Assembly (NCBI GenBank): GCA_963751455.1
Contig: CAVVUN010000015.1
Location: forward strand, 1,376,001-1,440,000
DNA length: 64,000 nt
DNA from: Nitrospirota bacterium
GTDB taxonomy: Bacteria; Nitrospirota; UBA9217
Direction of reading: 5' to 3'
Numbering within the stretch: the stretch's first letter is position 1; the number at the start of each line of letters is the position of its first letter. Positions 1 through 29,304 of this stretch are shown here, one piece after another. The notes beneath the pieces were generated by a model, which saw nothing but the letters and a program-made list of their open reading frames with translations, was not told the origin of the DNA and made no database searches. A program made the translations under genes and the position numbers.

Positions 1-2393
1 GCGGTTTTGGAGGTGCTGACGGTTACCCCAACAGTTACACCCTCGACACCGCCCTCGCCCTGCAAGCCCTCAAGGCCGCCAATTATTCCGATACGACCGT
101 TATCGGTCAGTCATTGAACTATCTCACTAAAAATCAAAACTCAGACGGTGGGTGGGGATTCAGGTCCGCGACCGACGCTAGCCCTGCTGATGATAGCAAT
201 GCGTACGTAACTGCAATCGTTCTCCGTACGCTTGCATTATACGATTCAACATTCAAAATGACAGATTCAATATTAAGGGCATCGGAGTACCTCATTGCCA
301 AACAAAATGCTGACGGAGGTTTTGGATCTAGTCCTTCCAACATCTATGAAACTGCTCTCTCGATCTTGTCATTAATCGAAAGCGGAAAAGGAAGTAGTTC
401 GATCATTCAGAACGGGATTCAATATTTGACATCGACGCAAGCATCCGACGGTAGCTGGGGTCAGGACCCATATTATACTGCTCTTGCGCTTCAAGCGCTT
501 GCTGCTGCAAGGCCGAATCTTACTATTTCCTCAATTTCACTTTCGAATCCGATGCCGAAAGAGAATGTAGAAACAACCATTTCTGCTACGATAAAGAACG
601 CCGGGTATGATGACGCCTCTAACATTATCGTTCGATTCTTTCTTGGCGACCCGGCAAACGGCGGCATTCAAGTCGGGTCTGATCAAATTATTCCATCTCT
701 TACCCCGAACTCCTCAACTCCTGTCTCCGTAACTGCTTCATTCACCGGTATTGGCGGCAAGACGATATTCGTTGTCGTTGATCCGGACGGTGTTATCTCT
801 GAAACATCTGAATCAGACAACAAATCTTCCGCCCGTGTTTGGATTGCAACCGGACCTGATCTTGCTGTTTATTCCGAAGACCTGAAACCATCCACTTATG
901 TTCCTGTATCAGGAACCGCGTTTACTCTCGGATATAAAGTCCGAAACCTTGGTGAAAGTGCGACAGGAGCATTCACTGTCAGTCTCTACGAAGGCGATCC
1001 TTCGCAATCCGGAGTTCTTTTGCAGACCGTCAATATCTCGGGTCTTGCAGGAACGGAAGTACGCTCAGGATCAATAGGTGTTACCCTTACCGGGAACGGT
1101 TCTCACACGCTTTACCTGACAGCTGACCCCGGAACCCTGATCCCTGAATTATCTGAGACGAACAACACCGGCTCGGTCACTGTCCAGGTAGGAGGCACGC
1201 AGCAGTTTGCGGACCTTATGGTAGGGATGATACAGATTACCCCAGCCCGGCCGACTACTGGTGAGATGGTGCAGATAACCGCGCCGATCCGGAACAAAGG
1301 GTCTGAAGCGGCGTCGTTCTTTACTGTAGAGATATTCGACGGCCTCCCAGATGCCGGAGGCACGCTGATTAACGCGCAAACGATTTCACTTGCGTCTGGC
1401 GCTGAACAGATCATTACCGCGAATTGGGCAATCGCGTCAGGTATTCACGAGCTCTATCTGATCGTGGACCGCTCCAACCAGATCAGCGAGACAAACGAAA
1501 CGAACAATCAAACAACGCTGCGCGTCATGCCTGACATGGTCGACATTTCGATCTCCGCAACAGATTTGACATTTACTCCTGAGCATCCGGTGAACGGGGA
1601 TATTGTGCTTTTGTCAGCCGAACTGCATAATACCGGGATCAAGGACACTGGTGCATTCAACTTTGCACTCTATGACGGAGATCCGGCAGCAGGAGGCACA
1701 CTTTTACAGACCTTCTCCATCGCGAACCTTGCCGGCGACGCAAGCACGACCCTAACCTACAATTTTACCGCTGTTCCCTGGACCTACCGTTTCTATGCAA
1801 TAGCTGATACTGAAAACATTGTCACCGAACTCTACGAGGCAAATAACCAGGCAATCAGCTCGTTAAAGATTAAAGCGCCCGGCGAAATCCTTGGTCCTGA
1901 TAACGTCCCAACAGCGCCGGACCTTACAAGCATGCCCTTCAGCAGCCCGACTTTGACCATCTCCGGTAACGTGAAAACAGCATTCGAAAACACCGGCGAC
2001 ACAAAGATAGCCGATTCCTCCGGCATTATCATCTTCGAGGACAAAAACAACGACGGCAGGTACACGGCAGGAGTGGATACGCTCTTAGGAACAGGCACAT
2101 ATACAATCGCAAAATTCAATGACGATCCCATGTCCGAGTTCGTTCTGCTTATTACCCAGGTTTATTACCATGCACTATATATGAAAGGAAGCGTTTATTT
2201 GATCGAACACGACGGAAAAATAAAATGGGGACCGGTGTATCTGAACGATCTTGCGCCCTATGCCCTGTCCGCGTCATACGACAGTGAGACCATCAAGACC
2301 GGCCTCGATGAAGCCGGTGAGCCGATCATTAACATCCGCATAAACGACAAAGATGTAATTCTGGACAGAGACGGATATCTGAAAAATAAATAG
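1..2393 (+). CDS. Prenyltransferase/squalene-oxidase-repeat + CARDB domain protein, short form (5' partial, copy 1)
   Basis: Frame is open from position 3 (GFGGADGYPNSYTLDTALALQALKAANY...), so the gene starts upstream of the window. QNxDGGWG/QNxDGGFG repeats are followed by four CARDB-type units (PDL/PNL...VDPxxxIxExxExNN). Paralogous to 7872 and 19465. Confidence 0.85.
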   Translation, partial: GFGGADGYPNSYTLDTALALQALKAANYSDTTVIGQSLNYLTKNQNSDGGWGFRSATDASPADDSNAYVTAIVLRTLALYDSTFKMTDSILRASEYLIAKQNADGGFGSSPSNIYETALSILSLIESGKGSSSIIQNGIQYLTSTQASDGSWGQDPYYTALALQALAAARPNLTISSISLSNPMPKENVETTISATIKNAGYDDASNIIVRFFLGDPANGGIQVGSDQIIPSLTPNSSTPVSVTASFTGIGGKTIFVVVDPDGVISETSESDNKSSARVWIATGPDLAVYSEDLKPSTYVPVSGTAFTLGYKVRNLGESATGAFTVSLYEGDPSQSGVLLQTVNISGLAGTEVRSGSIGVTLTGNGSHTLYLTADPGTLIPELSETNNTGSVTVQVGGTQQFADLMVGMIQITPARPTTGEMVQITAPIRNKGSEAASFFTVEIFDGLPDAGGTLINAQTISLASGAEQIITANWAIASGIHELYLIVDRSNQISETNETNNQTTLRVMPDMVDISISATDLTFTPEHPVNGDIVLLSAELHNTGIKDTGAFNFALYDGDPAAGGTLLQTFSIANLAGDASTTLTYNFTAVPWTYRFYAIADTENIVTELYEANNQAISSLKIKAPGEILGPDNVPTAPDLTSMPFSSPTLTISGNVKTAFENTGDTKIADSSGIIIFEDKNNDGRYTAGVDTLLGTGTYTIAKFNDDPMSEFVLLITQVYYHALYMKGSVYLIEHDGKIKWGPVYLNDLAPYALSASYDSETIKTGLDEAGEPIINIRINDKDVILDRDGYLKNK

Positions 2394-2436
2394 AGCCAGA
2401 ATATATGGCATAAGAATAAATTGAGGGAAGAGGGTT

Positions 2437-2889
2437 ATGCCGGAAATCTATCTGCTGAACGCGGAACACCTGATCCAGGATTACCTGGACACCGCGCATG
2501 CTATCGGGCGAGAACCGAACTACACGCATTTTCATACCAGGCACCGCCATTGTCTGAAAGTCCTCGTTCGCGTGTTCGGCAAGCCCGGCTGGAGCAATCT
2601 CCAAAAAGCCGCAGCCGGAAAAAAGTGGAGAGCGGGCCTCCGCAAGCATGGACTGCGCACCGGCGCAGTGGCAGCAGGACCGAGGAGGACATTGAACCCG
2701 GTAAGAACAGAAGGAGAGATACTCGAAGAGATATGGGCGATCTACCGCGCACTTATAGCGGCAAATCAGGCCGGAAAAAAGAAAAAATCATCGAAAGAAC
2801 AGAGAAATGTATGGAAACTGAGTAACAGGCTCAACGACTTGTTCTATGAAACCGGACGCGTTATCTCACTGAAGGAAGCATTTAAATAG
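2437..2889 (+). CDS. Hypothetical basic protein (150 aa)
   Basis: ATG preceded by gagggaagagggtt; K/R-rich; no recognisable domain. Confidence 0.55.
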   Translation: MPEIYLLNAEHLIQDYLDTAHAIGREPNYTHFHTRHRHCLKVLVRVFGKPGWSNLQKAAAGKKWRAGLRKHGLRTGAVAAGPRRTLNPVRTEGEILEEIWAIYRALIAANQAGKKKKSSKEQRNVWKLSNRLNDLFYETGRVISLKEAFK

Positions 2890-2928
2890 AAAACTATCAA
2901 AAGAACCGGCGAGAACAAAATGGAAGGA

Positions 2929-3276
2929 TCATACTTTCTGAAATGTTTTGCTTAACAATTTCAGAGCTTGCTTGATGAGGCGCAAATCGGGCTTTGATAA
3001 TTTTGCTAACGGATTTTTCTCTTTAACAGAAATACGCTTGATTTGCGGCTTTGCCTTGGAAAAGAAGCTACCCAGCTGCACTCCCAGTGCAGAGGCAATT
3101 TTTACTATGGAATCGAGGCTCACATTGACCCGGCCGCGTTCCAGTTCGCCGATAAATTTATAATTCAAGGAGGCCTTTTCGCCAAGCTCTTCCTGCGTGA
3201 TCCCGGCGGCATTCCTGAGTTCCCGTATCCGCTCGCCGATTATTTTTCGCGTGGCCTTGATCTTACCGATCTTCAT
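2929..3276 (-). CDS. XRE/Cro-C1 family helix-turn-helix transcriptional regulator
   Basis: IGERIRELRNAAGITQEELGEKASLNYKFIGELERGRVNVSLDSIVKIASAL is a typical HTH_3. ATG at 3276 chosen; divergent from 3741. Confidence 0.9.
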   Translation of the reverse strand: MKIGKIKATRKIIGERIRELRNAAGITQEELGEKASLNYKFIGELERGRVNVSLDSIVKIASALGVQLGSFFSKAKPQIKRISVKEKNPLAKLSKPDLRLIKQALKLLSKTFQKV

Positions 3277-3496
3277 GAAGCTGATTATAGGCAATCCGTG
3301 AAAAACAATAAACCATGCATATAAGGTCAATATTGAATACGATATAGCCGTATATGTAGGGTATTAATCAAACTCTAGTTTGAAGCGGGAGCGCCGTTAT
3401 TAAGCATCATGGGTTTACGCATTAAACAAAAGAAAAGACAATAGTTTGATTTTATTACTATTTATATTTTTTCTGAGTTGCGCCGTTTAAATGTTA

Positions 3497-3740: not shown

Positions 3741-6700
3741 ATGCGCGTCTATACTTTCGGCTTCCGAATTACGGTCTGGGCTGTACTCTCGCTATTTTTA
3801 TGGTGCTATGGGCCTTTGTTCCAGATACAAATGGCCTGGGCCGCTTCGCCGGAGCCGCGTAAGACGCCGCAAGCGCAGAACGAAAAGCCGAAACCGGCAT
3901 CGGCATCGGAACGATTTCAGGCCGCGCTTGAGGATATCCGCGAGTCAGCCGGTAAAGCAGGTGACAGGGTCGCGAAAAACGAGGACACCTCATCGGAACT
4001 CGAGACTATAAAGACAAAGCGGACGGAACTCGATTCTCTTCGGGCTGAACTCAAAAAAGAATTCGATAGTACAGGCAAACGTCTCAGGGACGGGAAGCTT
4101 CCAAGCGAAATCATATCCCGCCACGAAAAATTCGTCGAGAATTTTGAACGCAATTACAAGGAACTGCAGGATGCGCTCAGTGCAGTAGAGCAGGCGAAAA
4201 AGAAAGAAGAGAAGCAGCGAGCATACCAAAAAGCAAAAGCATTCCTGGAAAAGACCAGGCCGCAGCGGAAAAATATTCCTCTCGATCCGAGTCGCTTGCC
4301 GCATCGCGCTATCAAGGCAAAACCAAAAGCCCCGCGATTGACCGCCGAAGAGTATCAGCGCGATTTTCCGAAGCAAAAGTTGCGGAGCAAACAGAAGGTT
4401 GCGGAAACCCGCTTATTGCCAGATCTCTTGGCAAGCAAACAACAACCTAAACCGGTTCTCTTGGCTTTCAATGAAACCGCCAGCGATATTACTTTTTCAG
4501 TCGGCTCTGACGCAATCACCCTGCAGCCCGATCTTTCCGTCACTGCATTCGAACCGCTGCTGCTCGCGCAAGCCGCGTCTAACCTTCCGACGCCGGAGGA
4601 TCTCGCCTCCACCCCCGAGATAAATTCCGATTCGCCGCTCATTCGCGCCAAGGCAGAGGAACTGGGCTGTGCGCCTGCACGCCTGTACACTTGGACCAGG
4701 AACACCATAGAATTCGTACCCACCTACGGCTCAATTCAAGGGGCCGAGATGTGCCTTCAGACAAAGCAATGCAATTCCATCGATACAAATTCTTTATTGG
4801 CCGCGTTAATGCGTTCATGCAATATCCCCGCGCGCCTGAATATCGGAACAATCGAGGTCCCGATTGAGAAACTGATGAATTGGGCGGGTGGATTTAGTGA
4901 CCCGACCGCAGCTTTGAATTATCTTGCCAGCGGCGGAATACCCGTCACCGGGTTGCGGTCGGGCGGCAAAATATACGCGGCGAGACTCGAAACCGCATGG
5001 CTCCGCGTTTTCGTCGACTATATCCCGTCACGAGGGGCTGTACATAAAGAAGGCGACACTTTCATCCCCCTTGACGCCAGTTTTAAACAATATACCTACA
5101 AAACAGGTCTCGATGTTCAGCAAATAACAGGCTTTGACCCTTCCGCTTTTGCGAATTCCTTAATAAACAGCGGTGTCACCGACCCTGCCACTGGGTCGAT
5201 CACAGGAATAAACGCTACCTTCATTCAAACGCAGATTGACGCAGCCAAAACTTTACTCGAAACACATATAGAAACATTACAAGATCCTACCGTTGGCGAT
5301 ATCATAGGCGCCAAAAATATTATACAGGAAGATCTTGAGCTTCTTCCCGCGAGCCTTCCCTATAAGACCATTCTAACAGGCTCGGAATTCGCTGACATTC
5401 CCGATTCTCTTCGGTATAAAGTCGGGATATCGATATACGATCCACAGACAATGGCACAATCGATGAGTGTCACTTATTCAACCGCGTACTTGGCGGGCAA
5501 ACGGATAACTTTAGCGTACATGCCTGCCACACAGACAGATGCACAGACTTTAGAAACTTATGGATATTACAACACCAAGCCATATCTCGTAAATCTCAAG
5601 CCTGTTCTCAAGATAGATGGTATCACGGTCAACAGCGGTGGCAATACAGGCATGGGTATGATGCAGGACCTGACTGTTACGTTTATACCTCCCAATGGTT
5701 CAACGGATATGGTTACTCACAAGATACCTGCATCAACATACGCCTCGCTCGGGCTCGACTTGCAAAGAGTATCTAAAAGTCTTCTTGACAACAGGAATGC
5801 GCAGCTCAGCGCCGCTGTAAACCTGCTCGGACAGCAAGACGTTGCCGTGGATGATATCCTCGGTGAGACTCTTAATCTGCACAATCTTGGTTATTTTTCT
5901 CAGGTAGAGACCACAAACCGAATGCTCGCGACAGGCAAGGTAGCATACTCAAAACAACCTGCCGAGATGCTCACAACCTTGGCGCCGACCATTTCGTATC
6001 TCTACGGAGTCCCGTACAGCATCGGCTCTATCGGAACCAATATAGATGTTAAACGCTATCCCATGAATGTGATCTCGCTACAGGGTAACATGAATGACGA
6101 AATAGCTTTTATGACCGCGTCCGGAACAAGCGGGTCTGCATATGAACATACGATTATTGAAGAACTTCATCAAGATGCGCAGGGCGTCTCTGCGGTAAAG
6201 ATTATTAGCATCGCAAATCAACAGGGCATCCCAATATATACAATAGATTCCAGTAACAGCGCGACGGTACTGCCAAGACTGCGGATATCCTCGGAAACCA
6301 TGTCAAATATTCAGAATGCGATTGCCGCTGGAATGCGGGTCATTATTCCTGAACAATCAATTCAATATTTTGATTGGCACGGTGAGGGGTTCATTGTCAC
6401 TGATCCCTCCAGTGGTGCTGCTGCATATATGCTTTCAGGCGGATTGGCAGGGGGTGGAACTTCTTCACAGCTTGACCAATTGAGCAGTTTTTTTAGTGAC
6501 ATGCTGAAAAACTTTGCTTTCGATTTCACTAAAGCGCTAATCACTTTTCTTTTCAAGGCAGGCGCCGGAGTAGCTTCAAAGTTGGCAAGCATAGCCGGGT
6601 ATATTACTATGGGTCTTTCCGCAATTAAGACATATAATGATATGTTTGACGCTACAGGAGGAGATTCATTGAAGGCCAAATCTGCAGCTGTTCTTGATCT

Positions 6701-6920
6701 CGCTATGAGTGTGATGGCCTCGATATACATTGGGGCTATAATGTTTGCAGCAACAGGATTTGGGGCAGCTGTTGCTGGAATTCTCCTTGTCGCTATAATT
6801 GCAACCCTAATAGAAATGCTTTTCTTGGCATTGATCGAGTATGCAAGCGTCCCAAGTATATCTCGAAAAAAGTACTTTGCTATGATAACGTCACCGTGGA
6901 GGTATTGTTATGCTGCGTAA
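3741..6920 (+). CDS. Secreted transglutaminase-like-core polymorphic toxin candidate 1 (hydrophobic C-terminal tip)
   Basis: Signal peptide ending AWA-A; coiled-coil N-terminus; TGc-like segment (YGSIQGAEMCLQTKQCNSIDTNSLLAALMRSCNIPAR). Homologous to 12549 up to YMLSGGLAGG (6438-6455), then an unrelated hydrophobic tail. Confidence 0.8.
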   Translation: MRVYTFGFRITVWAVLSLFLWCYGPLFQIQMAWAASPEPRKTPQAQNEKPKPASASERFQAALEDIRESAGKAGDRVAKNEDTSSELETIKTKRTELDSLRAELKKEFDSTGKRLRDGKLPSEIISRHEKFVENFERNYKELQDALSAVEQAKKKEEKQRAYQKAKAFLEKTRPQRKNIPLDPSRLPHRAIKAKPKAPRLTAEEYQRDFPKQKLRSKQKVAETRLLPDLLASKQQPKPVLLAFNETASDITFSVGSDAITLQPDLSVTAFEPLLLAQAASNLPTPEDLASTPEINSDSPLIRAKAEELGCAPARLYTWTRNTIEFVPTYGSIQGAEMCLQTKQCNSIDTNSLLAALMRSCNIPARLNIGTIEVPIEKLMNWAGGFSDPTAALNYLASGGIPVTGLRSGGKIYAARLETAWLRVFVDYIPSRGAVHKEGDTFIPLDASFKQYTYKTGLDVQQITGFDPSAFANSLINSGVTDPATGSITGINATFIQTQIDAAKTLLETHIETLQDPTVGDIIGAKNIIQEDLELLPASLPYKTILTGSEFADIPDSLRYKVGISIYDPQTMAQSMSVTYSTAYLAGKRITLAYMPATQTDAQTLETYGYYNTKPYLVNLKPVLKIDGITVNSGGNTGMGMMQDLTVTFIPPNGSTDMVTHKIPASTYASLGLDLQRVSKSLLDNRNAQLSAAVNLLGQQDVAVDDILGETLNLHNLGYFSQVETTNRMLATGKVAYSKQPAEMLTTLAPTISYLYGVPYSIGSIGTNIDVKRYPMNVISLQGNMNDEIAFMTASGTSGSAYEHTIIEELHQDAQGVSAVKIISIANQQGIPIYTIDSSNSATVLPRLRISSETMSNIQNAIAAGMRVIIPEQSIQYFDWHGEGFIVTDPSSGAAAYMLSGGLAGGGTSSQLDQLSSFFSDMLKNFAFDFTKALITFLFKAGAGVASKLASIAGYITMGLSAIKTYNDMFDATGGDSLKAKSAAVLDLAMSVMASIYIGAIMFAATGFGAAVAGILLVAIIATLIEMLFLALIEYASVPSISRKKYFAMITSPWRYCYAA

Positions 6921-7803: not shown

Positions 7804-7871
7804 TTGAGTAAATAATATTGCGTTGATTAGCTGGTGCATCTCAATAAAACAAGATTGCCGAGGTATAAGCC

Positions 7872-18171: not shown

Positions 18172-18230
18172 TGAAAGCGAAACGTCAAAATATTATATGA
18201 AGCTAACAGGAGCATCAAGATGCAAGAAAT

Positions 18231-18496: not shown

Positions 18497-18620
18497 GAAA
18501 TATATTTTTTTTTAAATCCGAACGTCCGTATTCGTTTATAGTCATAGATATTGCAGTTAGGGATGGACTTTAATGGGCAAGCCCCTTAGGGCAATAAATT
18601 ATTATTAATCAGGAGGGACA

Positions 18621-19097: not shown

Positions 19098-19464
19098 TGG
19101 TTCGCCCGGTGATGAAATCCATCTGATCGGGAAAAGATTAATGGAAGGCTGAGATAGTTCTAACCGTTCGGCTCGTTGCGCCAAGATAAATCCGAAACAG
19201 AGGGGAGGTAATCTAGGAAATCTGTTATTGTCTGCTGCCCACGCTGCGTTACTATGCTTGCTCTCTGGTTTCGCTCGTGTCATAAAATATTTAAAGCAAG
19301 AATCAGTTCTTTTGGGGACCGAACTTTATGGTGATGAAACAGGTGAATATTACCAGGTGGATAAGAACGGGAATATATATACGATCAATGGCGATTTAAT
19401 AAAAAAGCGCAGAGTATCCTTATCCGATAAGCCAATGCATAATCTCAGAAGAGGCGGTGCGATT

Positions 19465-22400
19465 ATGAGAAGAGCGTTAATTATTGCTGTTATCCTGGCG
19501 TGTTTATTACAGGCATTTCCTTGCAGGGCTCATAGCGCATCAATATCGAGCGGCGCCGAATGGTTAATGTCTACTCAAAACGCTGATGGCAGTTGGGGCT
19601 CGGAAGATTTTACTCTGATCAATACATCATTAACGCTAGATGCTCTCACAGCAACCGGGAATACCGGAACAAATTTTACCGAGGGACTAAACTGGCTGAC
19701 CCTACAAACTGATATACCGACGACAGATGAATTAGCTCGGAAAATAATCACTGCGGCTAAGGCTGTCATCGATGTCAGTGAATTGATAGATAATCTCGTT
19801 GGTTACAGAAATTCTGACGGGGGATGGGGCGCAAAGATCGGCTCATTCAGTGATCCTGAAACTACCGCCCTCGCCCTCAAAGCCCTTCATGCCGCAAATT
19901 ATTCCGATACGACAGTCATCGGGCAGTCTTTGAACTACCTCACCAAAAATCAAAATTCGGACGGCGGGTGGGGATTCAGGTCAGCGAGTGAAGGACTGCT
20001 GGCGGACGAAAGCAATGCATATGTAACCGCGTTAGTGCTTCGGGCTTTGTCTTCATACAATTCCGTATTCATTAATCAGGAAGCAATTAATAACGCTTCG
20101 GCATATCTTCTCATGAAACAGAACACTGATGACGGCTTCGGTAGCTCTCCCTCAACAATTTATGAAACCGCGTTGTCGGTTATGTCTTTGATCGAAAGTG
20201 GAAAGAGCAGTTCAGAAACGATTATCAACGGAATTAATTACCTTACATCCATGCAATCACCAAATGGCTCATGGAATGATGATCCATATTCTACCGCTCT
20301 TGCTCTTCAGGCGTTGGCTGCAGCGAGGCCGAATCTCACTGTCTCCTCGATTTCGCTTTCGAATCCAATGCCGCAGGAGAATGTAGAAACAGCTATTACT
20401 GCTACGATAAAAAATGCTGGATATGAAGATGCTTCTAACGTTGCCGTTCGTTTCTATCTTGGCGATCCTTCGATAAACTCAGGACAGGTCCCTTCGACAG
20501 GTGGTATTCAAGTCGGTGCTGATCAAATTATTCCGTCTCTTACTCCGAACTCCTCAACTCCCGTCTCTATAACTGCTTCATTCACCGGCACCGGCGGCAA
20601 GACTATCTTCGTTGTCGTTGATCCTGATAATACAATATCCGAAACATCCGAAACCGACAATAAATCCTCCACCCGCGTTTGGGTGGCAACGTGTCCTGAT
20701 TTGGCGGTTTATTCTGAGGACCTGAAACCTTCAACCTATGTCCCCGTTTCGGGAACTGCGTTTACCATGGAATATAAAATTCGTAATCTCGGTGAGAGTG
20801 CTACCGGCGCATTTACAGTCAGCCTCTACGACGGTGATCCTTCACAGGCTGGCGTCCTTTTGCAGAGTGTCAATATCTCCGGCCTTATGGGGACGGAGGT
20901 AAGAACGGGAACGGTGGGCGTTACATTAACCGGGAATGGTTCGCATACCCTTTATCTGGTCGCTGATAAAGATAGCGCGGTCACCGAATTATCCGAGACG
21001 AACAACACCGGCTCGGTTACTGTTCAGGTTGGAGGCACACAGAAGTTTGCGGATCTTGTGGCAGGAATGATACAGATTACGCCGGCACGGCCGAACGTGG
21101 ATGAGACGGTGCAGATAACAGTGCCGGTCAGAAACAAAGGATCAGAAGCGGCGTCGTTCTTTACGGTAGAGATATTCGACGGCCTCCCGGATGCCGGAGG
21201 CACGCTGATTCACTCACAAACGATTTCTCTTGCGTCTGGCGCTGAACAGATCATTTCAGCGAATTGGACAATCGCGTCAGGTATTCACGAGCTCTATCTG
21301 ATCGTGGACCGCTCCAACCAGATCAGCGAGACAAACGAAACGAACAATCAGGCGTCTGTCAAAATCATGCCCGATATGGTGGATATCTCTCTCTCCGCTA
21401 CTGATCTGACATTTATACCTGAGCACCCGGTTAATGGCGATACGGTTCTCCTTTCAGTTAAGGTGAACAACGCCGGGATCAAGGAGACCGGAGCATTCAA
21501 CTTTGCACTCTATGATGGAGATCCGGCGGCAGGAGGCACACTTTTGCAGACCTTCTCCATCGCGAACATTGCCGGTGACGCAAGCACGACTGTAACCTAC
21601 AATTTCACCGCTGTTCCCTGGACCTATCGGTTCTATGCTATTGCCGACACGGAGAACACCGTCACCGAACTCTACGAGGCAAATAATCTCGCCATCCGTT
21701 CACTAAAGATCAAAGCCCCCGGAGAAATTCTCGGTCCTGATCTTGTGCCCACCAAAATCGATCTTTTGTCCATGACCACCGACACCCAGACCCTGTCAAC
21801 AGGCGACAGCGCAAAAATCACGTTCCAGAACAAGGGCGATGACAAGATCGCCAGTTCCTTCAGCGTCTTGGTATTCGACGATATCGACATGAACGGGGCC
21901 TACACGCCCGGTATGGACAACATTCTCAGTACCGGCACCAGTACAATCCCAATCTGGCCTGAAGGCGTGGGCATGGTAAGCATGACGCTTTCCGGGTCAG
22001 TGAAGTTCCTGAATACGCCGCTTTATGCCATGATAGACGCGGACGACACGATCCACGAACAGGACGAGACGAACAATATCCTTTCCTCGTGCAAGGATTG
22101 CCAAGTTGTGCCAACGAACCCATTGCAGCCGACGGTGAAGTGGAAGTGGTGGGGCCCGTACGATGAGTATTTCTATACGCCACCCTCAATTATGAACCTG
22201 AGGGACACGAACAGCGATAGTAAAATTGATCAAAACGACACTCCGGATATTATCATAAACGCCGGCGCGCGGACTGGCAATAGCATTTATGGAACCATTC
22301 GGGCGTTTAAAGGCAATATGGGCGAAAATTACATGAACCTCAAGGATGCAAACAACCGGCCAAGCGCTTATTCTTATACTGCAGCCGGTGATATCGACAG

Positions 22401-25400
22401 CGACGGAAAACCAGATATCCTTAGCGCCCGCAGTAGTGCAAGCGGGTACAGTATCGTTGCATATAATAACGACGGGACTGTTAAGTGGAACAATATCGCC
22501 AACGTCAACGCCTGGAATGCCTCCCATCTCCCTGGGACTGTCTGGAACTATTTAGATATTCGTCCTGATGGGATTCTCGCTCTTGCGGACCTCGATGGCA
22601 ACGGGACAAAGCAAATCGTCATGGGCCCGAACATTATTAATGCGGATGGTTCCATCCGGTGCGCGAGGGACCATTTTGTGTACAGTGGTGAAGGTATGGC
22701 ATATAATTACGGGGGGTTCTATGCGGTCAGCATCGCTGATCTTGATCTGGATGGCAGGCAGGAAATCATCGGGGGAAACGCCGCATATGACGGCAATTGC
22801 AACCTTAAGTGGTGGAACAGTGTCTTGCCGGACGGCGCAACCGCAATAGCGAATTTTAATGATGATGTATATCCGGAGATTGTTTTGGTGACCAATTATC
22901 AGCATCGCTCCAGTGTTTACCTCCTCGATCGCAATGGAAGCGTTAAATGGGGACCGGTGTACATCTATCGGCTGAACGGCGAAGCAACTCCAACCGGATA
23001 TAATATAAGCCAGCCGGTTGTGTCGGATTTCGACGGCGACGGCACTACGGATATAGGAGTCATGTACGACGGCAAGATTTTTATTCTGAATAGAAGCGGT
23101 CAACTAGTGCATCGGTTCCCGATCCCGGGTAAATACAATGAAGTTGGTTGGGGAAATTACCCGACTGCGCCCACGGTTTTTGACCTCGACGGCGACGGAA
23201 GTCCAGAGATAATGTTCAACTCAGCCGGTTACTTCCGCATCATGAACGGCAAAAACGGCGTCACATTATTTCAAGAGGCTTTCGGATATGCTGACGCCAA
23301 TATTCAAAATACTGTGGTTGCTGACGTGGACGGCGATGGCCATGTTGAAGTAGTCGTTGTCGGTCCTGACGTCAATAACGGCATTATGACGGCCATACGC
23401 GTGTATGGTTCATCCGACCACAGTCAGCCCTGGGTCAATGGCCGCCGCATCTGGAACCAGCCCTCCTACCACGTCACGAACGTGAACGACGACGGCTCTA
23501 TCCCGCAGTATGAAACCCCGAGCTGGCTTATGAACAACACCTACCGTACGCAGGCGGCAATCGGCCCGAATCCGAATCCGTACCTGACGCCCAACCTGAC
23601 GGTTTCTTACTTCCGGCAACAGCAGGAAAACGCCGGCCTGAACGTCACGGTCCGCGTCGGGAACGGCGGGGCCACAGAAGCTTCGGCAGGCGCGGGCGTC
23701 TCGTTCCACAACGGAACCTCGCAGGGCGGAACCCTTCTTGGTACGATATACACAACCAAAACCCTGCAGCCCGGAGAGTACGAGGACGTTTCGTTCACCG
23801 TGGGCAGCGCTTATGCAGGCAGCGCGGCAATAACCGTGGTCGTGGACGAGGCGGCCCTGGTCTCCGAATGCCGTGAGGACGACAATACCGTCACTCTCTC
23901 GTTGAGCGCGATATCCGGCATGCCCGACCTCACCATAGGCGCTGAAGATATTACGCTTTCATCAGGTCCGTATTATGAAGGCGGTTTCGTATCGATAACG
24001 GCAAACGTCAGGAATGCAGGCTATTATCCTGCTGCAAATACGCAAATCCGGCTTTATGACGGAAATCCCGAACCCGACGGGATGCAGATAGGAACACAGA
24101 CGATTTCCTGGATCGATGCAGGCGGATCAGCAACAATCACGTTTACTTTCGACACCCTCGGCAAATCCGGAACCCACGTGCTGTACGCGGTCGCGGACCC
24201 TGAAAATGCAATCATTGAGACAAACGAACAAAACAACAGCGCAGGCGCAACACTTGATGTAGAGCAGCCGATTTTGCCGAACCTGACGGTCACGTCGAAT
24301 GACATTGCTCTATCGTCGTCATCGCTCAGGGAAGGGGAGCAGCTTACAGTAAACGCAACCGTCTTGAACCGGGGAACATCGGTTGGCGCAATTCCAGTCA
24401 GACTCTCGCTTACATCTGCCGGATCAGGAACAGAATCGATCTCTCAAACGATCTACCCGGTCCTCGGCCTCGGTCAGTCTGTAACGGTGCAGGCAACCTT
24501 TGAGACAGTCGGATTGTCCGGCACACAGACGGTCCTCATAGAAGTCGACCCTGACAATGCCATCGCGGAAGGCATAGAAACCGACAACACGGCCTCCGCA
24601 TTGGTTTCAATCCAGAGCGCGGGAATTGCATCGAGCCTGAGCATCGATAAAACTCAGTATGGCTCGCATGCAGATTCGAACATAATCGTGTCTATTCACA
24701 ACAATAATTCTTCCTCCTGGTCCGGCAGCGGCTCGATATTCATAGAAGATACAGCCGGAAATCGAATCGCCTCAGCAGCAACATTCACCGTGACCGAACT
24801 CGTACCCGCAGGTCCGGCAGGCAGGGCGTATCGGATACCCGCATCACTAACAGCAGACCGGACCATGAAAGACGCACTCGCGCAGACAAACATAGATTTT
24901 GCTTCAGCTCTTTCAATCCTGGGCATACCGGATAAGTCTGTTGATCAAAACTCGCTTCGCGTCCTGGAACTGGACGGCCAAGGGAACATCGTCAATGAAA
25001 AACAGGCAAAGGCCGAATTCCAGGCGGATGGTTCGGCAAATGTTACCTGGCTTGTCGACGGGATCACCCAGGCAGACTCAACCAGAAGCTTCGCAGTCTA
25101 CTTCGATACGAGCGACCACGGTCCCAAGACTCCGTCACAAAACACAAATCTTATCATGAACGGGCAACTTATCGCTTTCACGGACGATTCAGGCAAAATC
25201 TATACCATTGAAAGCAATGGCGATGGAACATTCACGACAGCCAACCTTATCGATGACATATCGACTTCGAACGACAATATCCGGGGCGTCGTGCTCGATG
25301 ACTTCAATAACGACGCTTTCACGGACGTGATCACCGGCCGAGGCACAACCGGAGAACTCTATTATTACCAGAACAAGGCAGACGGCACGAACACATTCCT

Positions 25401-28400
25401 TGCAAGAGTCAAGATCGGCGCAATTACCGCCTCCAGTTGGATCATGGATATGGCAACCGCCGATTTCAACAACGACGGCTTTGAGGACTTTGTCGTGAGC
25501 GGCAACAATAAAAACCTCTATCTGTTCCAGGGAAATGGAAACGGCGCCTTTACCCAGACCACACTGGCCTCTCCGGCGAGCGCAGTGGCATTGAGAGGCA
25601 AGACGGCAGCCGATGTTGACCGTGACGGAAAGGTCGATCTGTTCATCGGAAACTATAGTGACGGCGCACTCTACCTCTACAGAGGCAGCGGGAACGGTGC
25701 TTTTTCATCACCGGTTAAAATCGGCACAAGCGGCGCCGATCCGTACGGCGTTATTGCCCGCGATTTTGACGAGGACGGCAGGATAGATCTGATTGCAAGC
25801 ACCAGCGCCAGTGGAGGCGCCAATCTCTTCAAAGGCATTGGCGACGGCGCCTTCGCCTCTCCGGTTTCCGTGCCGTCCCTTATCACAGGCAGTGCAATCG
25901 GATTCGACGCTGGAGATTTCAACAATGACGGTCATATGGATATAATCGCCGCAAACTGCGGCAGTAAAAACATTGCATTCTACCCGGGCAGGGGAGACGG
26001 GAGTTTCGGTCAGAAAGTACAGCTCGCTTCCACGGCCTACTGCAGTCTCGGCATCAGCGCCTTGCCGGCCCCGCCCGAGATATCCGTTGTGACGGGACAG
26101 GCCGAGCCGGTTCCCTCGCAGACGTATTCCTTTACCTGGAACACGGGCGGAACATACGCAGGCGCCTATCAGGTACATGCAATATTGTCCGAACCCGGCA
26201 AGGCCGTGTCTGAAAACCGCGCTTCTTTCGACATTCTGCCGGATATGAACGCCCAGGCAGGCGTCACCACGGACAAGATTTCGTATAATCCGAACGAGAC
26301 AATAACGCTTTCTTCGACAGTTACGAGCCTGAGCGGGAATTATGCTTTTGAAAACCTGGCAGCCCGGGTAGAGATCAGTTCAAGCGGTTCAAACAGTTTA
26401 AACGGTCTGGTCTTCGTCGAAACGAAGACCATATCCACCCTCATGCCCGGGGCCGCGTACACGTTCAAGAGTTACTGGAACGTAGGGACGAATGCGCCGG
26501 GGACATATCCGGTAACTCTCGAGATAAAAGATGCGACAGGCACGGTCATTGCCGCGGGCACACAGAACGTTGTGATCGCGAATACGCTCAAACCTTCAGC
26601 CATGCTCAAGGGCCAGATTGCCGTAGACAAGCAGAGCCTGCTGTCCGGCGAGACAGTGACGATCTCGTATGGCGTAACGAACACGGGAAATACCGATCTC
26701 GAGAACATTGCGCTCTCGGTCCTGACCGTCCATGCAGTAAACGAGTCGATATACGACACGATCACTGATCAAGCTAGCGTTGCCATGGGTGCAACGTCCA
26801 GCAATTCCGCTTCAATCAACACCACAAACTACAGCGCCAGGGATTACCTGGTTATTCTGCGGGCAAATATCGCCGGGGTGGAAGAGACCCTTGCCGGGAC
26901 CTACTTCAGGGTCGAAGGGGCGCCGTCCGCGCCGTCGCTCGCCGGGCCCGGACAGGCTGCGGATGTCCTGACCTTCTTTCCTGAGCTTTCTGTGAATAAT
27001 GCGTCAGATCCGAACGACGACAAGCTCTTGTATGAGTTTGAGGTGTACAGCGACCCCGGCTTAGCGAATCTCATCACCAGTTCCTCCGGCACGGTCTCCG
27101 AACAGGCCGGAATCACAAAATGGATCGTAGCCGTGGCCCTTTCCGAAAACCAGACCTATTACTGGCGTACACGAGCATATGACGGGAAGTTGTACGGGCC
27201 ATGGATGTCCATCGACTCTGCTCAGGACAGGCCGGCATCTTTCAGGGTCAACACCGTGAATGATCCGCCGACTGCGCCTATTCCAACGAGCCCTGCAGAT
27301 GGCACAGATGTGTCCGTTCTTACTCCAATTCTGACTGTCACCAATGCGGCTGATCCGGACAGCGCCAGCCTCACGTATAATTTCGATGTGGCACAGGATC
27401 CTGATTTTGCCGGCATCGTGATATCTGCAAAAGGCGTATTGAGCGGCCAAGGCAATACTTCGTGGCAGCCGACCCTGAGCCTTGAGGAGAATGTTTGGTA
27501 TTACTGGAGAGCGCAGGCTGATGACTGGCTGGATGAAGGACCGTGGTCAGTCACTTCCCGGTTCTTCGTGAACACGTCTAATGACGCGCCTACTGCGCCT
27601 TCGATAACCATGCCGGCCGATAATTCTACGGTGTCTGCCCTTACTGCCGATATTATTGTCGCAAACAGCACTGACCCTGATTCTGCGGTTATTAACTACT
27701 TTATCGAGCTTGATACAGCCATGACCTTCGATTCCGGTAATGTGATCAGGTCGGGCGCTGTTATGGCAGGACAGGCCTCTTCGACAGGCTCAGGGCAGGA
27801 TACGACAATGTGGCACGTGGATGGGCTCCGGGACAATACCCGATACTATCTCCGAGCGAAGGCAAGCGACGGCGCTGCCGAAAGCGCCTGGTCGTCAGTG
27901 GTATCTTTCTTTGCTAATACTGCCAACGACGCCCCGACAGCGCCGCTGCCCGCAAATCCTTCCAACAATGCCGGCGTGAATGTTTTCATGCCGACATTGT
28001 CCGTGCACAACTCGGCGGACCTTGACGGAGACGCTCTCACTTACGAATTCGAGCTCTATAGTGATGCGGCTATGTTGAACCCGGTCCGGAATGCCTCAGG
28101 CCTTGCTGAAACAGCTCAAATTACCTCGTGGACTGTGCCGGTATCGCTTATTGAAAACCAGATTTATTACTGGCGCGCCCGGTCCTTTGACGGAATAGCT
28201 GTAAGCGCCTGGACTACCCTTTCCCAATTCACCGTAAATACTGCCAATGACTCACCGGGCGCGCCGGGCCTCTCATCGCCTGCTGAAGGGAGCAGCCTTT
28301 CAACAACGACGCCCACGCTCTCGATCACGAATGCAGTGGATCCGGACAGCGATAATCTTACTTATGATTTCGAGATCTACTCGGGCGGCGTGCTTGTAAA

Positions 28401-28899
28401 CGCGGCGTCTGGAGTCGGAAGCCAGGAGTCAGGAGTAACATCGTGGATTGTATTGACGACGCTGACGGACAATACGGCGTACGCATGGCGGGCGCGCGCC
28501 TTTGACGGCGACCAATATGGTTCATGGATGGGCATGGCCACATTCTCGATCCATATTCCGAAAACGAGCATCAATGCAACAATTGATTTTGATCCTGATA
28601 CTTTGAATAAAAAGAGCAAAGGCACCTGGGTCGTCGTGTATATCGAACTTCCCGTCGGGTACAAGCCGGCTGATGTCGACATCGCCTCGATTCGACTGGA
28701 AGGGACGGTACCTGCTGAGCTCTGGCCGTATGCAAGCGGAGATCATGATAAGGACGGCATCCCGGAGCTTATGGTCAAGTTCAAGCGGAGCGACGTGATA
28801 AGCGTGATCGGAAACGGAGATAATATCCCGGTACAGGTAAAAGGCAAGGTCGGAACCATGACATTTGAAGGAGCGGATGTTATCAGGGTGATACCGTAA
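19465..28899 (+). CDS. Giant secreted prenyltransferase-repeat/CARDB/FG-GAP/FN3-like protein (3144 aa, copy 3)
   Basis: Start moved to ATG 19465 (MRRALIIAV signal peptide, parallel to 7872). QW-type repeats, CARDB units, two sets of DxDxDG FG-GAP blades, five NDxPxAP...YYWRxRAxDG repeats, and a C-terminal domain with GDHDKDG. Confidence 0.88.
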   Translation: MRRALIIAVILACLLQAFPCRAHSASISSGAEWLMSTQNADGSWGSEDFTLINTSLTLDALTATGNTGTNFTEGLNWLTLQTDIPTTDELARKIITAAKAVIDVSELIDNLVGYRNSDGGWGAKIGSFSDPETTALALKALHAANYSDTTVIGQSLNYLTKNQNSDGGWGFRSASEGLLADESNAYVTALVLRALSSYNSVFINQEAINNASAYLLMKQNTDDGFGSSPSTIYETALSVMSLIESGKSSSETIINGINYLTSMQSPNGSWNDDPYSTALALQALAAARPNLTVSSISLSNPMPQENVETAITATIKNAGYEDASNVAVRFYLGDPSINSGQVPSTGGIQVGADQIIPSLTPNSSTPVSITASFTGTGGKTIFVVVDPDNTISETSETDNKSSTRVWVATCPDLAVYSEDLKPSTYVPVSGTAFTMEYKIRNLGESATGAFTVSLYDGDPSQAGVLLQSVNISGLMGTEVRTGTVGVTLTGNGSHTLYLVADKDSAVTELSETNNTGSVTVQVGGTQKFADLVAGMIQITPARPNVDETVQITVPVRNKGSEAASFFTVEIFDGLPDAGGTLIHSQTISLASGAEQIISANWTIASGIHELYLIVDRSNQISETNETNNQASVKIMPDMVDISLSATDLTFIPEHPVNGDTVLLSVKVNNAGIKETGAFNFALYDGDPAAGGTLLQTFSIANIAGDASTTVTYNFTAVPWTYRFYAIADTENTVTELYEANNLAIRSLKIKAPGEILGPDLVPTKIDLLSMTTDTQTLSTGDSAKITFQNKGDDKIASSFSVLVFDDIDMNGAYTPGMDNILSTGTSTIPIWPEGVGMVSMTLSGSVKFLNTPLYAMIDADDTIHEQDETNNILSSCKDCQVVPTNPLQPTVKWKWWGPYDEYFYTPPSIMNLRDTNSDSKIDQNDTPDIIINAGARTGNSIYGTIRAFKGNMGENYMNLKDANNRPSAYSYTAAGDIDSDGKPDILSARSSASGYSIVAYNNDGTVKWNNIANVNAWNASHLPGTVWNYLDIRPDGILALADLDGNGTKQIVMGPNIINADGSIRCARDHFVYSGEGMAYNYGGFYAVSIADLDLDGRQEIIGGNAAYDGNCNLKWWNSVLPDGATAIANFNDDVYPEIVLVTNYQHRSSVYLLDRNGSVKWGPVYIYRLNGEATPTGYNISQPVVSDFDGDGTTDIGVMYDGKIFILNRSGQLVHRFPIPGKYNEVGWGNYPTAPTVFDLDGDGSPEIMFNSAGYFRIMNGKNGVTLFQEAFGYADANIQNTVVADVDGDGHVEVVVVGPDVNNGIMTAIRVYGSSDHSQPWVNGRRIWNQPSYHVTNVNDDGSIPQYETPSWLMNNTYRTQAAIGPNPNPYLTPNLTVSYFRQQQENAGLNVTVRVGNGGATEASAGAGVSFHNGTSQGGTLLGTIYTTKTLQPGEYEDVSFTVGSAYAGSAAITVVVDEAALVSECREDDNTVTLSLSAISGMPDLTIGAEDITLSSGPYYEGGFVSITANVRNAGYYPAANTQIRLYDGNPEPDGMQIGTQTISWIDAGGSATITFTFDTLGKSGTHVLYAVADPENAIIETNEQNNSAGATLDVEQPILPNLTVTSNDIALSSSSLREGEQLTVNATVLNRGTSVGAIPVRLSLTSAGSGTESISQTIYPVLGLGQSVTVQATFETVGLSGTQTVLIEVDPDNAIAEGIETDNTASALVSIQSAGIASSLSIDKTQYGSHADSNIIVSIHNNNSSSWSGSGSIFIEDTAGNRIASAATFTVTELVPAGPAGRAYRIPASLTADRTMKDALAQTNIDFASALSILGIPDKSVDQNSLRVLELDGQGNIVNEKQAKAEFQADGSANVTWLVDGITQADSTRSFAVYFDTSDHGPKTPSQNTNLIMNGQLIAFTDDSGKIYTIESNGDGTFTTANLIDDISTSNDNIRGVVLDDFNNDAFTDVITGRGTTGELYYYQNKADGTNTFLARVKIGAITASSWIMDMATADFNNDGFEDFVVSGNNKNLYLFQGNGNGAFTQTTLASPASAVALRGKTAADVDRDGKVDLFIGNYSDGALYLYRGSGNGAFSSPVKIGTSGADPYGVIARDFDEDGRIDLIASTSASGGANLFKGIGDGAFASPVSVPSLITGSAIGFDAGDFNNDGHMDIIAANCGSKNIAFYPGRGDGSFGQKVQLASTAYCSLGISALPAPPEISVVTGQAEPVPSQTYSFTWNTGGTYAGAYQVHAILSEPGKAVSENRASFDILPDMNAQAGVTTDKISYNPNETITLSSTVTSLSGNYAFENLAARVEISSSGSNSLNGLVFVETKTISTLMPGAAYTFKSYWNVGTNAPGTYPVTLEIKDATGTVIAAGTQNVVIANTLKPSAMLKGQIAVDKQSLLSGETVTISYGVTNTGNTDLENIALSVLTVHAVNESIYDTITDQASVAMGATSSNSASINTTNYSARDYLVILRANIAGVEETLAGTYFRVEGAPSAPSLAGPGQAADVLTFFPELSVNNASDPNDDKLLYEFEVYSDPGLANLITSSSGTVSEQAGITKWIVAVALSENQTYYWRTRAYDGKLYGPWMSIDSAQDRPASFRVNTVNDPPTAPIPTSPADGTDVSVLTPILTVTNAADPDSASLTYNFDVAQDPDFAGIVISAKGVLSGQGNTSWQPTLSLEENVWYYWRAQADDWLDEGPWSVTSRFFVNTSNDAPTAPSITMPADNSTVSALTADIIVANSTDPDSAVINYFIELDTAMTFDSGNVIRSGAVMAGQASSTGSGQDTTMWHVDGLRDNTRYYLRAKASDGAAESAWSSVVSFFANTANDAPTAPLPANPSNNAGVNVFMPTLSVHNSADLDGDALTYEFELYSDAAMLNPVRNASGLAETAQITSWTVPVSLIENQIYYWRARSFDGIAVSAWTTLSQFTVNTANDSPGAPGLSSPAEGSSLSTTTPTLSITNAVDPDSDNLTYDFEIYSGGVLVNAASGVGSQESGVTSWIVLTTLTDNTAYAWRARAFDGDQYGSWMGMATFSIHIPKTSINATIDFDPDTLNKKSKGTWVVVYIELPVGYKPADVDIASIRLEGTVPAELWPYASGDHDKDGIPELMVKFKRSDVISVIGNGDNIPVQVKGKVGTMTFEGADVIRVIP
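20467..20497 (+). repeat. In-frame 24-bp CCTTCGA...CTCAGGACAGG repeat insertion
   Basis: GDPS[INSGQVPS]TGG against GDPSAGG in the paralog; CCTTCGA is duplicated 24 bp apart. Confidence 0.75.
27209..27233 (+). repeat. In-frame insertion of the same repeat family (SIDSAQDRP)
   Basis: ccatcgactctgctcaggacaggcc; 7 extra residues between the conserved W and F relative to the four sister repeats. Confidence 0.7.
27767..27799 (+). repeat. In-frame 24-bp insertion of the same repeat family (ASSTGSGQ)
   Basis: caggacagg-cctcttcgacaggct-cagggcagg; CAGGRCAGG is duplicated 24 bp apart. Confidence 0.7.
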
Positions 28900-28907
28900 G
28901 GCGGGAA

Positions 28908-28949
28908 AAATTGTAAATTGGAAATTGAAAATTGTAAAATGCAAAGTGT
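28908..28949. repeat. Heptamer tandem repeat (AAATTGN x6, degenerate)
   Basis: aaattgt aaattgg aaattga aaattgt aaaatgc aaagtgt. Confidence 0.85.
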
Positions 28950-28998
28950 ACCCTGCTCTTAGGAAGACGAGACATGTTTGGTGGTACAAGGAGGCCGT

Positions 28999-29304
28999 AT
29001 GAAAAAAGCTTATACCGGATGGATCGTTCCGCTCGTTTTATGCCTTGCGCTCTTCGCCTGCACCGATGACAAGAACCCGGCGCAGCAGTACGGCAACACG
29101 ATGGTTGAGTCTCTCAAAACCGCGAAGAAGGTTGAAAAGAAGGTGAATGTGCTGACAGTGCAGAAATCAATACAGGAATACTACGCAGCCAACGGCCGCT
29201 ATCCTGCTGATCTGAACGAGGTCGCGGCGTTCAACGGTATGACCTTAGAGGGCGGCAATTATGATTACAATCCTGCGACGGGAACGTTGACAGAGAAGCC
29301 GTGA
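28999..29304 (+). CDS. Small lipoprotein with pseudopilin-G-like C-terminal segment
   Basis: aggagg RBS; lipobox LFAC; VQKSIQEYYAANGRYPADL resembles the helix and GxYP motif of T2SS G/pilins. Confidence 0.7.
   Translation: MKKAYTGWIVPLVLCLALFACTDDKNPAQQYGNTMVESLKTAKKVEKKVNVLTVQKSIQEYYAANGRYPADLNEVAAFNGMTLEGGNYDYNPATGTLTEKP

What the first reader, a model, noticed from the sequence alone, without database searches (positions are those of the whole stretch)
1..29304. Candidate new polymorphic toxin system: transglutaminase-like carrier + immunity + prenyltransferase-repeat/CARDB partner
Seen: two Sec-signal proteins (3741, 12549) are homologous for about 900-950 aa up to G(A/S)(A/G)AYxxSGGLxG and then carry unrelated tips. 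Each is followed by a small gene, then by a secreted (alpha/alpha)-barrel-repeat + CARDB protein. The unit recurs: a partner at 1-2393, unit 1 at 3741-10646, unit 2 at 12549-28899. An orphan tip cassette and orphan immunity-like genes lie behind unit 2. Established: a constant N-terminus, variable C-terminus, adjacent immunity gene and orphan cassettes define polymorphic toxins (Rhs, CdiA, MafB). Inference: the carrier here is none of those, and the CARDB/FG-GAP partner may be the display or targeting subunit of a Sec-dependent two-part toxin. I know of no characterised system with this architecture.
Basis: partly seen in the sequence, partly recalled or inferred. Interest (0 to 1): 0.9.

Follow-up and report, generated by a model that had tools for sequence, protein, structure and literature searches.

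The report
Stalk-and-carrier polymorphic toxin system
This bacterial DNA encodes secreted carrier proteins with interchangeable tips predicted to cut cell walls or pierce membranes, each beside a gene that likely protects the producer and near a giant adhesin-like partner that likely holds the carrier out towards neighbouring cells, which makes it a widespread and apparently undescribed bacterial weapon.

Summary
Confirmed, and wider than reported. The window holds part of a three-unit array: carrier, small gene, barrel/CARDB partner. Carriers share a signal peptide, a helical domain and a ~610-aa transglutaminase-fold core ending in SGGLxG. The core is a large family (3,705 clusters at E<=1e-30). 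Its tips include NlpC/P60, SLT, M23, M15, lipases, hydrophobic helices, Tox-REase-5, HINT+AHH and RHS. The predicted location of the next gene's product follows tip type: exported 24/28, membrane 23/29, cytoplasmic 18/21. Carrier and barrel co-occur in three phyla: 32 of 34, 26 of 26 and 12 of 13 barrel-positive genomes. They are sometimes fused, and some Firmicutes-type partners end in SLH anchors.

Corrections: the window's two internal partners are deleted forms, the orphan tip is NlpC/P60 like carrier 2's, and the gene after it is frameshifted. Zhang 2012 noted the domain, but only as an inactive transglutaminase before RHS repeats. Verdict: a new two-part delivery class of polymorphic toxins. 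Toxicity, immunity and binding are inferred.

The parts
1..2393 (+). Partner 0, 3' part (gene starts 358 nt upstream of the window; 916 aa): signal peptide, alpha/alpha barrel, four CARDB domains, internally deleted C-terminus. Follows carrier 0 and its small gene, both outside the window.
3741..6920 (+). Carrier 1 (1059 aa): Sec-type signal, helical N-domain, transglutaminase-fold core (triad C-T-D, His lost), SGGLAG junction, 155-aa hydrophobic helical tip (6453-6920), predicted membrane-acting toxin
6910..7803 (+). Predicted immunity protein of carrier 1 (297 aa, two N-terminal TM segments). The same pair recurs in L082: tip 68%, small gene 71% identical.
7872..10646 (+). Partner 1 (924 aa): signal, barrel, four CARDB domains, same internal deletion as partner 0
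12549..16022 (+). Carrier 2 (1157 aa): signal, helical N-domain, transglutaminase-fold core with intact C387-H461-D489, SGGLGG junction, NlpC/P60 tip (15342-16022) with DCS and HVG motifs; predicted peptidoglycan endopeptidase toxin
16088..17044 (+). Predicted periplasmic immunity protein of carrier 2: signal peptide plus NHL beta-propeller. Homologues lie behind NlpC-tip carriers in L083, L084 and, weakly, L008.
17065..18171 (+). Orphan tip cassette (ORF 17104-18171): last 113 aa of the core plus a second NlpC/P60 tip, 66-69% identical to tips of full-length carriers P0007, P0008 and P0013; no signal peptide
18231..18515 (+). Frameshifted beta-propeller gene, likely the orphan's decayed immunity gene
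   Evidence: three-frame reading by eye; weak match to the carrier 2 small gene, E 2e-4
18621..19097 (+). Small secreted protein (158 aa), possible orphan immunity gene; no homologue found in the fetched loci
19315..19398 (+). Relic of the 3' end of another beta-propeller immunity-like gene (50% to L083 over 28 aa)
19465..28899 (+). Full-length partner 2 (3144 aa): signal, alpha/alpha barrel (19534-20322; no DxDD, no CxEQ), seven CARDB domains, two FG-GAP regions, Fn3/Ig-like repeats, unnamed C-terminal domain (28540-28896) also found in 65 of 120 partner homologues; predicted display stalk

Best explanation
The locus encodes Sec-signal carrier proteins with a constant transglutaminase-fold core and a variable tip that is likely an antibacterial toxin, a tip-matched neighbouring gene that likely gives immunity, and a giant Ig-repeat partner whose N-terminal alpha/alpha barrel likely binds the carrier and presents it on the cell surface. 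Inferred steps: (1) Both proteins cross the inner membrane by Sec; in diderms they would leave through a secretin (type II) channel. (2) The barrel docks the carrier, probably at its helical N-domain. The transglutaminase fold is structural rather than catalytic. (3) The stalk (CARDB, FG-GAP, VWA, Fn3) reaches and sticks to a neighbouring cell; in Firmicutes it is tethered by SLH domains or a membrane tail. (4) The tip acts at its site: NlpC/P60 on peptidoglycan, hydrophobic helices in the membrane, TM-plus-nuclease tips in the cytoplasm. (5) The immunity protein sits in that same compartment of the producer. (6) New carrier-immunity cassettes insert into the array and leave truncated partners and orphan tips, so in this genome one full stalk would serve three carriers. 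How a tip crosses a Gram-negative target's outer membrane is not explained.
For: Shown: constant core with variable tips; 17 of 50 pairs with cores >=80% identical have tips without BLAST similarity. Recognised toxin-type tip families in 14 of 37 picked homologues, including Tox-REase-5, PT-HINT+AHH/HNH, M23, M15, SLT, lipase-like and phosphodiesterase, plus PLA2 and NucA/NucB. Carrier 2's tip folds as NlpC/P60 (Z 12.6, rmsd 2.2, 115 residues) and keeps Cys and His motifs. Three-way location match over 95 units: soluble tip then signal-only gene 24/28; TM-only tip then gene with >=2 TM 23/29; TM-plus-soluble tip then 0-TM gene 18/21. The carrier 1 pair travels together (L082). Orphan cassettes with their own small genes in L085, L086, L088 and L184-L187, plus a short orphan in L013. 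Co-occurrence: own phylum 39 carrier, 34 barrel, 32 both of 301; order of G301 31, 26, 26 of 151; class of G302 15, 13, 12 of 350. 31 of 39 barrels in the order of G301 lie within 20 kb of a carrier on the same strand. Barrel found in 40 of 80 metagenome loci, many of the rest short. Barrel gene directly before a carrier-RHS gene on Spartinivicinus ruber plasmid NZ_CP048879.1. Carrier-barrel fusions in both orders (P0394/P0400/P0402/P0403, one lineage; P0486) and archaeal carrier-CARDB stalk fusions without a barrel (P0445 Methanohalophilus). SLH domains in 2 of 5 Firmicutes-type partners scanned. Four carriers with no adjacent barrel lack the helical N-domain. Catalytic Cys replaced by Gly in 205 of 379 homologues. 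Five secretins in the own genome.
Against: No toxicity or rescue data exist here. The window's partner has no recognised anchor domain, so surface display rests on the Firmicutes forms. Some carriers have no barrel in the DNA fetched (L081, L094, L096, L097, L023, L035), and 7 of 39 and 5 of 31 carrier-positive genomes gave no barrel match. Partners between two carriers are truncated in 5 of 6 cases, and one is cut inside the barrel (L011, 124 aa), so many copies are debris. Carrier and barrel co-diverge only modestly (Mantel r 0.33 among 23 short-tip units), and shared ancestry can give that. No NlpC-to-TM switch appeared among the top 25 class-switch pairs, so tip class partly follows core clade. 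The triad is intact in carrier 2 and in 118 of 379 homologues, so catalysis is not excluded. The location table rests on a hydropathy heuristic and on related sequences. The fusions carry a signal-like segment between the parts, which shows co-production, not contact.
Confidence: 0.66

Rival explanations
1. Released binary toxin: carrier and partner form a diffusible complex, and the partner is a receptor-binding subunit rather than a tethered stalk, at least in diderms.
For: No known anchor in the window's partner. Partners vary in adhesive domains: FG-GAP, VWA, discoidin, PKD. Both genes carry Sec-type signals.
Against: SLH domains and a C-terminal membrane tail in Firmicutes-type partners. 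Partners of 2,000-7,000 aa made of Ig repeats look like stalks.
Confidence: 0.17
2. The polymorphic toxin is real, but the barrel is only a folding or secretion chaperone, or the partner is an independent adhesin inherited on the same island.
For: Barrel-only genes of 244-337 aa occur (L088, L095, L196). Several carriers lack a nearby barrel.
Against: Barrels of this family almost never occur without a carrier (2 of 34, 0 of 26, 1 of 13 genomes). Gene order differs between phyla (partner downstream or upstream) while adjacency persists, and fusions exist.
Confidence: 0.11
3. Not a weapon: secreted envelope-remodelling or cross-linking enzymes with regulatory neighbours.
For: NlpC/P60, SLT and M23 domains are common in housekeeping autolysins (established knowledge). 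Carrier 2 keeps a C-H-D triad.
Against: The same core carries nucleases, HINT and RHS. Distribution is patchy (39 of 301 genomes). Orphan cassettes and location-matched small genes are present.
Confidence: 0.05

Closest known systems
Polymorphic toxins with an N-terminal inactive transglutaminase (Zhang et al. 2012, PMC3482391; section 19 read in full, other passages read)
   Same: Signal peptide, transglutaminase fold, variable C-terminal toxin, Sec/T2SS class. The same core occurs before RHS repeats in this genome (G000:C15:1230182-1236205) and in most of 120 long homologues.
   Different: The window's carriers have no RHS repeats; the tip follows a ~610-aa core directly. The triad is intact in carrier 2. 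The held text mentions neither CARDB nor prenyltransferase (0 occurrences), so no barrel partner is described there.
Rhs/WapA, CdiA/CdiB and MafB systems (features recalled, not from a call)
   Same: Constant carrier, variable tip, adjacent immunity gene, orphan cassettes.
   Different: No RHS, TPS/haemagglutinin or MafB-N domain in the window's carriers. The partner is a secreted Ig-repeat protein, not an outer-membrane transporter. Tips are dominated by envelope-acting types.
S8-PTS of Gram-positive bacteria (Li, Tan, Zhang 2022, PMC9424270; abstract and outline only)
   Same: Three components: Sec-signal polymorphic toxin, immunity protein and a linked accessory gene.
   Different: There the accessory is an S8 peptidase, the carrier is BetaH and the tips are mostly nucleases. 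Here the accessory is a barrel-tipped stalk and the carrier a transglutaminase-fold core.
Alpha-2-macroglobulin/TEP thioester domain and archaeal VARTIG modules (PMC8416519; passages read)
   Same: Alpha/alpha barrel combined with CARDB/MG2-like Ig domains in a secreted protein, in conflict-type loci.
   Different: No CxEQ thioester motif in 30 barrels. VARTIG has no transglutaminase carrier (0 occurrences).

Membership tests
Polymorphic toxin system | Conserved N-terminal trafficking region with variable C-terminus | tested here: met
Polymorphic toxin system | C-terminal domains of recognised toxin families | tested here: met
   NlpC/P60 in the window; Tox-REase-5, AHH, HINT, M23, M15, SLT and others in 14 of 37 picked homologues
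Polymorphic toxin system | Adjacent small gene that co-varies with the tip | tested here: met
Polymorphic toxin system | Standalone tip cassettes | tested here: met
   window 17065-18171; L013, L085, L086, L088, L184-L187
Polymorphic toxin system | Tip kills bacteria and the adjacent gene neutralises it | not testable with these tools
   needs expression tests
Inactive-transglutaminase RHS toxins (Zhang 2012) | Transglutaminase domain in the N-terminal region after a signal peptide | tested here: met
   a helical domain and linker lie between signal and core
Inactive-transglutaminase RHS toxins (Zhang 2012) | Catalytic triad lost | tested here: inconclusive
   His lost in carriers 0 and 1, triad intact in carrier 2; C-H-D in 118 of 379 and G-H-D in 205 of 379 homologues
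Inactive-transglutaminase RHS toxins (Zhang 2012) | RHS repeat array after the transglutaminase domain | tested here: not met
   no RHS family hit in either window carrier; tips are 155 and 226 aa
CdiA / MafB | TPS-haemagglutinin or MafB N-terminal domain | tested here: not met
   no such Pfam or NCBIfam hit
Thioester proteins (A2M/TEP), for the partner barrel | CxEQ thioester motif | tested here: not met
   0 of 30 barrels
Squalene-hopene / class II terpene cyclases, for the partner barrel | DxDD catalytic motif (motif recalled) | tested here: not met
   0 of 30 barrels; NCBIfam cyclase scores far below cut-off

The most novel reading that the evidence does not exclude
A pan-prokaryotic contact-killing chassis not yet described. 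A prenyltransferase-like alpha/alpha barrel at the tip of a surface stalk acts as a socket for interchangeable transglutaminase-fold warhead carriers. The carrier's C-terminal half delivers short tips, Ig-borne lipases or whole RHS cages across the target envelope, and the design runs from Nitrospirota and Geobacter relatives to Gammaproteobacteria, Firmicutes and, as a single fused chain, methanogenic archaea.
Probability: 0.5. Interest if true: 0.9.

Novelty: new variant of a known kind. Interest (0 to 1): 0.8.

Why it matters
It would add a delivery route to the short list used by polymorphic toxins. It would also give a role to a very large family now labelled 'transglutaminase-like' (3,705 clusters at 50% identity, E<=1e-30) and to giant CARDB/prenyltransferase-repeat proteins of unknown function. 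It may explain how Sec-exported RHS toxins with no PAAR or VgrG reach a target. The tips are a library of candidate antibacterial envelope enzymes and pore-formers with predicted immunity partners. Homologues are named in cultured organisms: partners in Geotalea daltonii, Geotalea uraniireducens and Trichlorobacter lovleyi, a carrier in Ruminiclostridium hungatei, and both genes in Spartinivicinus ruber. The model can therefore be tested directly.

Tried and rejected

[quoted passage not shown] Foldseek had none at E<=0.001 and VIA-align's best Z was 7.2, a background level; this does not show that the fold is new. The 840-aa model matched only by its transglutaminase and NlpC parts. The PDB sequence search gave one weak hit, 3isr. 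The ESM Atlas gave only unnamed clusters.

Other blanks: no match in viral contigs or phages. No PADLOC hit for 10 window proteins. No sequencing run was listed, so no RNA holder was listed. No VipB (type VI sheath) match in the own genome. The promoter scan (40 sites against 28.2 +/- 5.1 in shuffles) and terminator scan were uninformative. Earlier scan findings returned nothing.

Rejected: an enzymatic cyclase or thioester role for the barrel; the 28978-29304 gene as part of the system (no homologue in the loci); the orphan as a ready recombination cassette (71% DNA identity, neighbour gene broken).

Rows dropped before a count: 27 of 40 matching genomes had only half-length barrel matches, read as squalene-cyclase-like. 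G703 was not scored.

Literature: searches returned no paper; searches returned no listing that describes this pairing. Subscription journals are not covered. Zhang 2012's held supplement was one 1,214-character file without hits; its alignment files and the last 57,000 characters of text were not seen and could mention these neighbours. Makarova 2019 on archaeal systems was not read.
Full report
Observation. Carriers 1 and 2 are 39% identical over about 900 aa up to SGGLxG, and their tips do not align. Pfam finds Transglut_core in both, NlpC/P60 in the tips of carrier 2 and the orphan, an NHL propeller in 16076-17044, and CARDB plus cyclase/prenyltransferase/TED repeats in the three partners. 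The own genome adds a third full unit just upstream. It also has a separate locus on contig C4, with carriers ending in a phosphodiesterase domain, their small genes and a 7,038-aa barrel/CARDB partner, and a carrier core fused to RHS with no barrel nearby. The closest named relatives are Nitrospirota genomes.

Corrections inside the window. Partners 0 and 1 (916 and 924 aa) share one internal deletion relative to partner 2 (3144 aa). They differ most in the barrel (33-57% identity) and are 92-98% identical in part of the CARDB region. In other arrays, partners lying between two carriers are short in 5 of 6 cases, against 15 of 24 over 2,000 aa at array ends. I read these as scars of cassette insertion. 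The orphan is a 5'-truncated carrier, 71% identical in DNA to carrier 2 and followed by a frameshifted propeller gene. Its tip is 66-69% identical to tips of full-length carriers elsewhere, so it looks like a displaced older tip.

The carrier family. A profile of the core matches 3,705 clusters at E<=1e-30. Of 259 homologues, 254 reach the junction and 248 have tips of 50 aa or more; these fall into 99 clusters (hydrophobic tips are over-split by BLAST). By class: 63 in the NlpC/P60 cluster, 107 short hydrophobic, 78 other. Of 37 picked homologues, 14 had a named tip family: Tox-REase-5, HINT with AHH or HNH, M23, M15, SLT, lipase-like, phosphodiesterase, a weak PLA2, and RHS. Among 50 pairs with cores at least 80% identical, 17 have unrelated tips, all hydrophobic against hydrophobic. 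No NlpC-to-hydrophobic switch was among the top 25 class-switch pairs. The model of core plus tip is confident (pLDDT 89.6, pTM 0.92). The tip matches NlpC/P60 endopeptidases (Z 12.6, rmsd 2.2, 115 residues) and the first domain matches a transglutaminase-like protease (Z 11.4, rmsd 3.4, 138 residues). The triad is C-H-D in 118 and G-H-D in 205 of 379 homologues; carrier 2 keeps it, carriers 0 and 1 lack the His. Catalysis is therefore probably dispensable (inference).

Immunity. Over 95 de-duplicated units, the next gene's predicted location follows the tip's likely site of action. Soluble enzyme-like tips precede signal-only proteins in 24 of 28, hydrophobic-only tips precede proteins with two or more TM segments in 23 of 29, and TM-plus-soluble tips precede proteins with no TM in 18 of 21. 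Long tips (6 of 10 signal-only) and 7 unclassed units are less clear. This rests on a hydropathy window and on related sequences. The carrier 1 tip and its small gene recur together in L082 at 68% and 71% identity. That immunity proteins sit where their toxin acts is established knowledge of effector-immunity pairs; neutralisation itself is inferred.

The partner. The constant element is the ~256-aa barrel. In the own phylum, 39 of 301 genomes have a carrier, 34 a barrel and 32 both. In the order of G301 the counts are 31, 26 and 26 of 151, and 31 of 39 barrels lie within 20 kb of a carrier on the same strand. In the class of G302 they are 15, 13 and 12 of 350, counting full-length barrel matches only. 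Kin are not independent, but the link holds across phyla and across gene order: the partner is mostly downstream in the first two groups and upstream in the Gammaproteobacteria and Firmicutes-type loci. A barrel was found in 40 of 80 metagenome loci, many of the rest being short and several being near-duplicates. Two of five Firmicutes-type partners scanned end in SLH domains, and one more ends in a hydrophobic tail seen by eye. Spartinivicinus ruber has a barrel gene directly before a carrier-RHS gene. The Burkholderia and Paraglaciecola plasmid carriers have no barrel gene annotated nearby and lack the helical N-domain. Five long homologues fuse carrier and barrel, in both orders, with a signal-like segment between. 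Methanohalophilus and Thermococcus proteins fuse the core to CARDB or MG2-type stalks with no barrel, as expected if the barrel replaces a covalent link (inference). The barrel has neither DxDD nor CxEQ in 30 sequences. Against: six loci show a carrier with no barrel in the DNA fetched, and co-divergence is modest (Mantel r 0.54 for 28 units, 0.33 for 23 short-tip units).

Mechanism. Shown: architecture, tip variability, tip families, location matching, linkage, fusions, anchors in some monoderm partners. Inferred: toxicity, immunity, barrel-carrier binding through the helical N-domain, surface display, and exit through a secretin (five in this genome; a partner remnant on C1 lies beside one). 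Unexplained: how a tip crosses a diderm target's outer membrane. I put the polymorphic-toxin reading near 0.9 and the full stalk-and-carrier model at 0.66.

Known versus new. Zhang et al. 2012 (PMC3482391; section 19 in full; passages) describe inactive transglutaminase domains in Sec-class polymorphic toxins, always followed by RHS repeats, and suggest they anchor the toxin by binding peptides. The window's carriers share that domain but fail the RHS criterion, and the held text has no CARDB or prenyltransferase. S8-PTS (PMC9424270; abstract and outline) is the nearest three-component analogue. VARTIG and archaeal macroglobulins (PMC8416519; passages) resemble the partner's domain mix but rely on CxEQ. 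Searches listed no paper on the carrier-barrel pairing; the library omits most subscription journals. Features of Rhs, CdiA and MafB and the DxDD motif are recalled, not from a call.

Verdict. A real polymorphic toxin array by every test computable here, built on a two-protein chassis I could not find described. New variant of a known kind; interest 0.8.

Noticed in passing
window 10643-12130 (+), 2437-2889 (+), 2929-3330 (-): A DUF4379 zinc-finger repeat gene, an HNH_repeat-like gene and an XRE gene follow the truncated partners. DUF4379 genes also sit at broken partner or carrier genes on contigs C1 and C4 and in L080, and XRE homologues in L080. A 77% copy of the CARDB ETNETNN-coding repeat lies at 10608. 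Possibly a mobile cassette tied to the truncations.
   Followed up: partly
window 28540-28896: Unnamed ~115-aa C-terminal domain of the partner, found in 65 of 120 partner homologues (61 at the very end) and at two other sites in the genome; candidate sorting or anchoring signal.
   Followed up: partly
L004:2500-3600 (G000:C4:51500): The 7,038-aa partner has an N-terminal HELLH (HExxH) metallopeptidase-like domain ahead of the barrel; a similar motif is in 9 of 120 partner homologues.
   Followed up: partly
L007 (G000:C1:696973-711171): A decayed unit: 5' carrier fragment, partner split by an insertion sequence, next to a secretin and pseudopilin-like gene cluster.
   Followed up: partly
L006:6182-12205 (G000:C15:1230182): Papain-like Peptidase_C1 fused ahead of a carrier core and RHS repeats, without the helical N-domain.
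   Followed up: partly
window 28978-29304: Small lipoprotein-like ORF with a pseudopilin-like C-terminal half (weak ComP_DUS hit); no homologue in the fetched loci.
   Followed up: partly
window 30000-36374: DUF6765 gene, a papain-family protease whose frame appears broken near 32500, a GDSL-like and a TIG-domain gene; possibly a separate conflict cluster.
   Followed up: no
window 38190-55592: Defence-island-like stretch: type I restriction fragments, GmrSD with Mrr_N, ParB-N, RES/HEPN, RhuM, DUF3800, Fic, zeta-toxin-like and HsdM genes.
   Followed up: no
L020, L188, L195 and the P0129/P0139 cluster: Tips with a hydrophobic segment followed by an RHYT-motif domain with no Pfam hit; by eye reminiscent of ADP-ribosyltransferase toxins (recalled, untested).
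   Followed up: no
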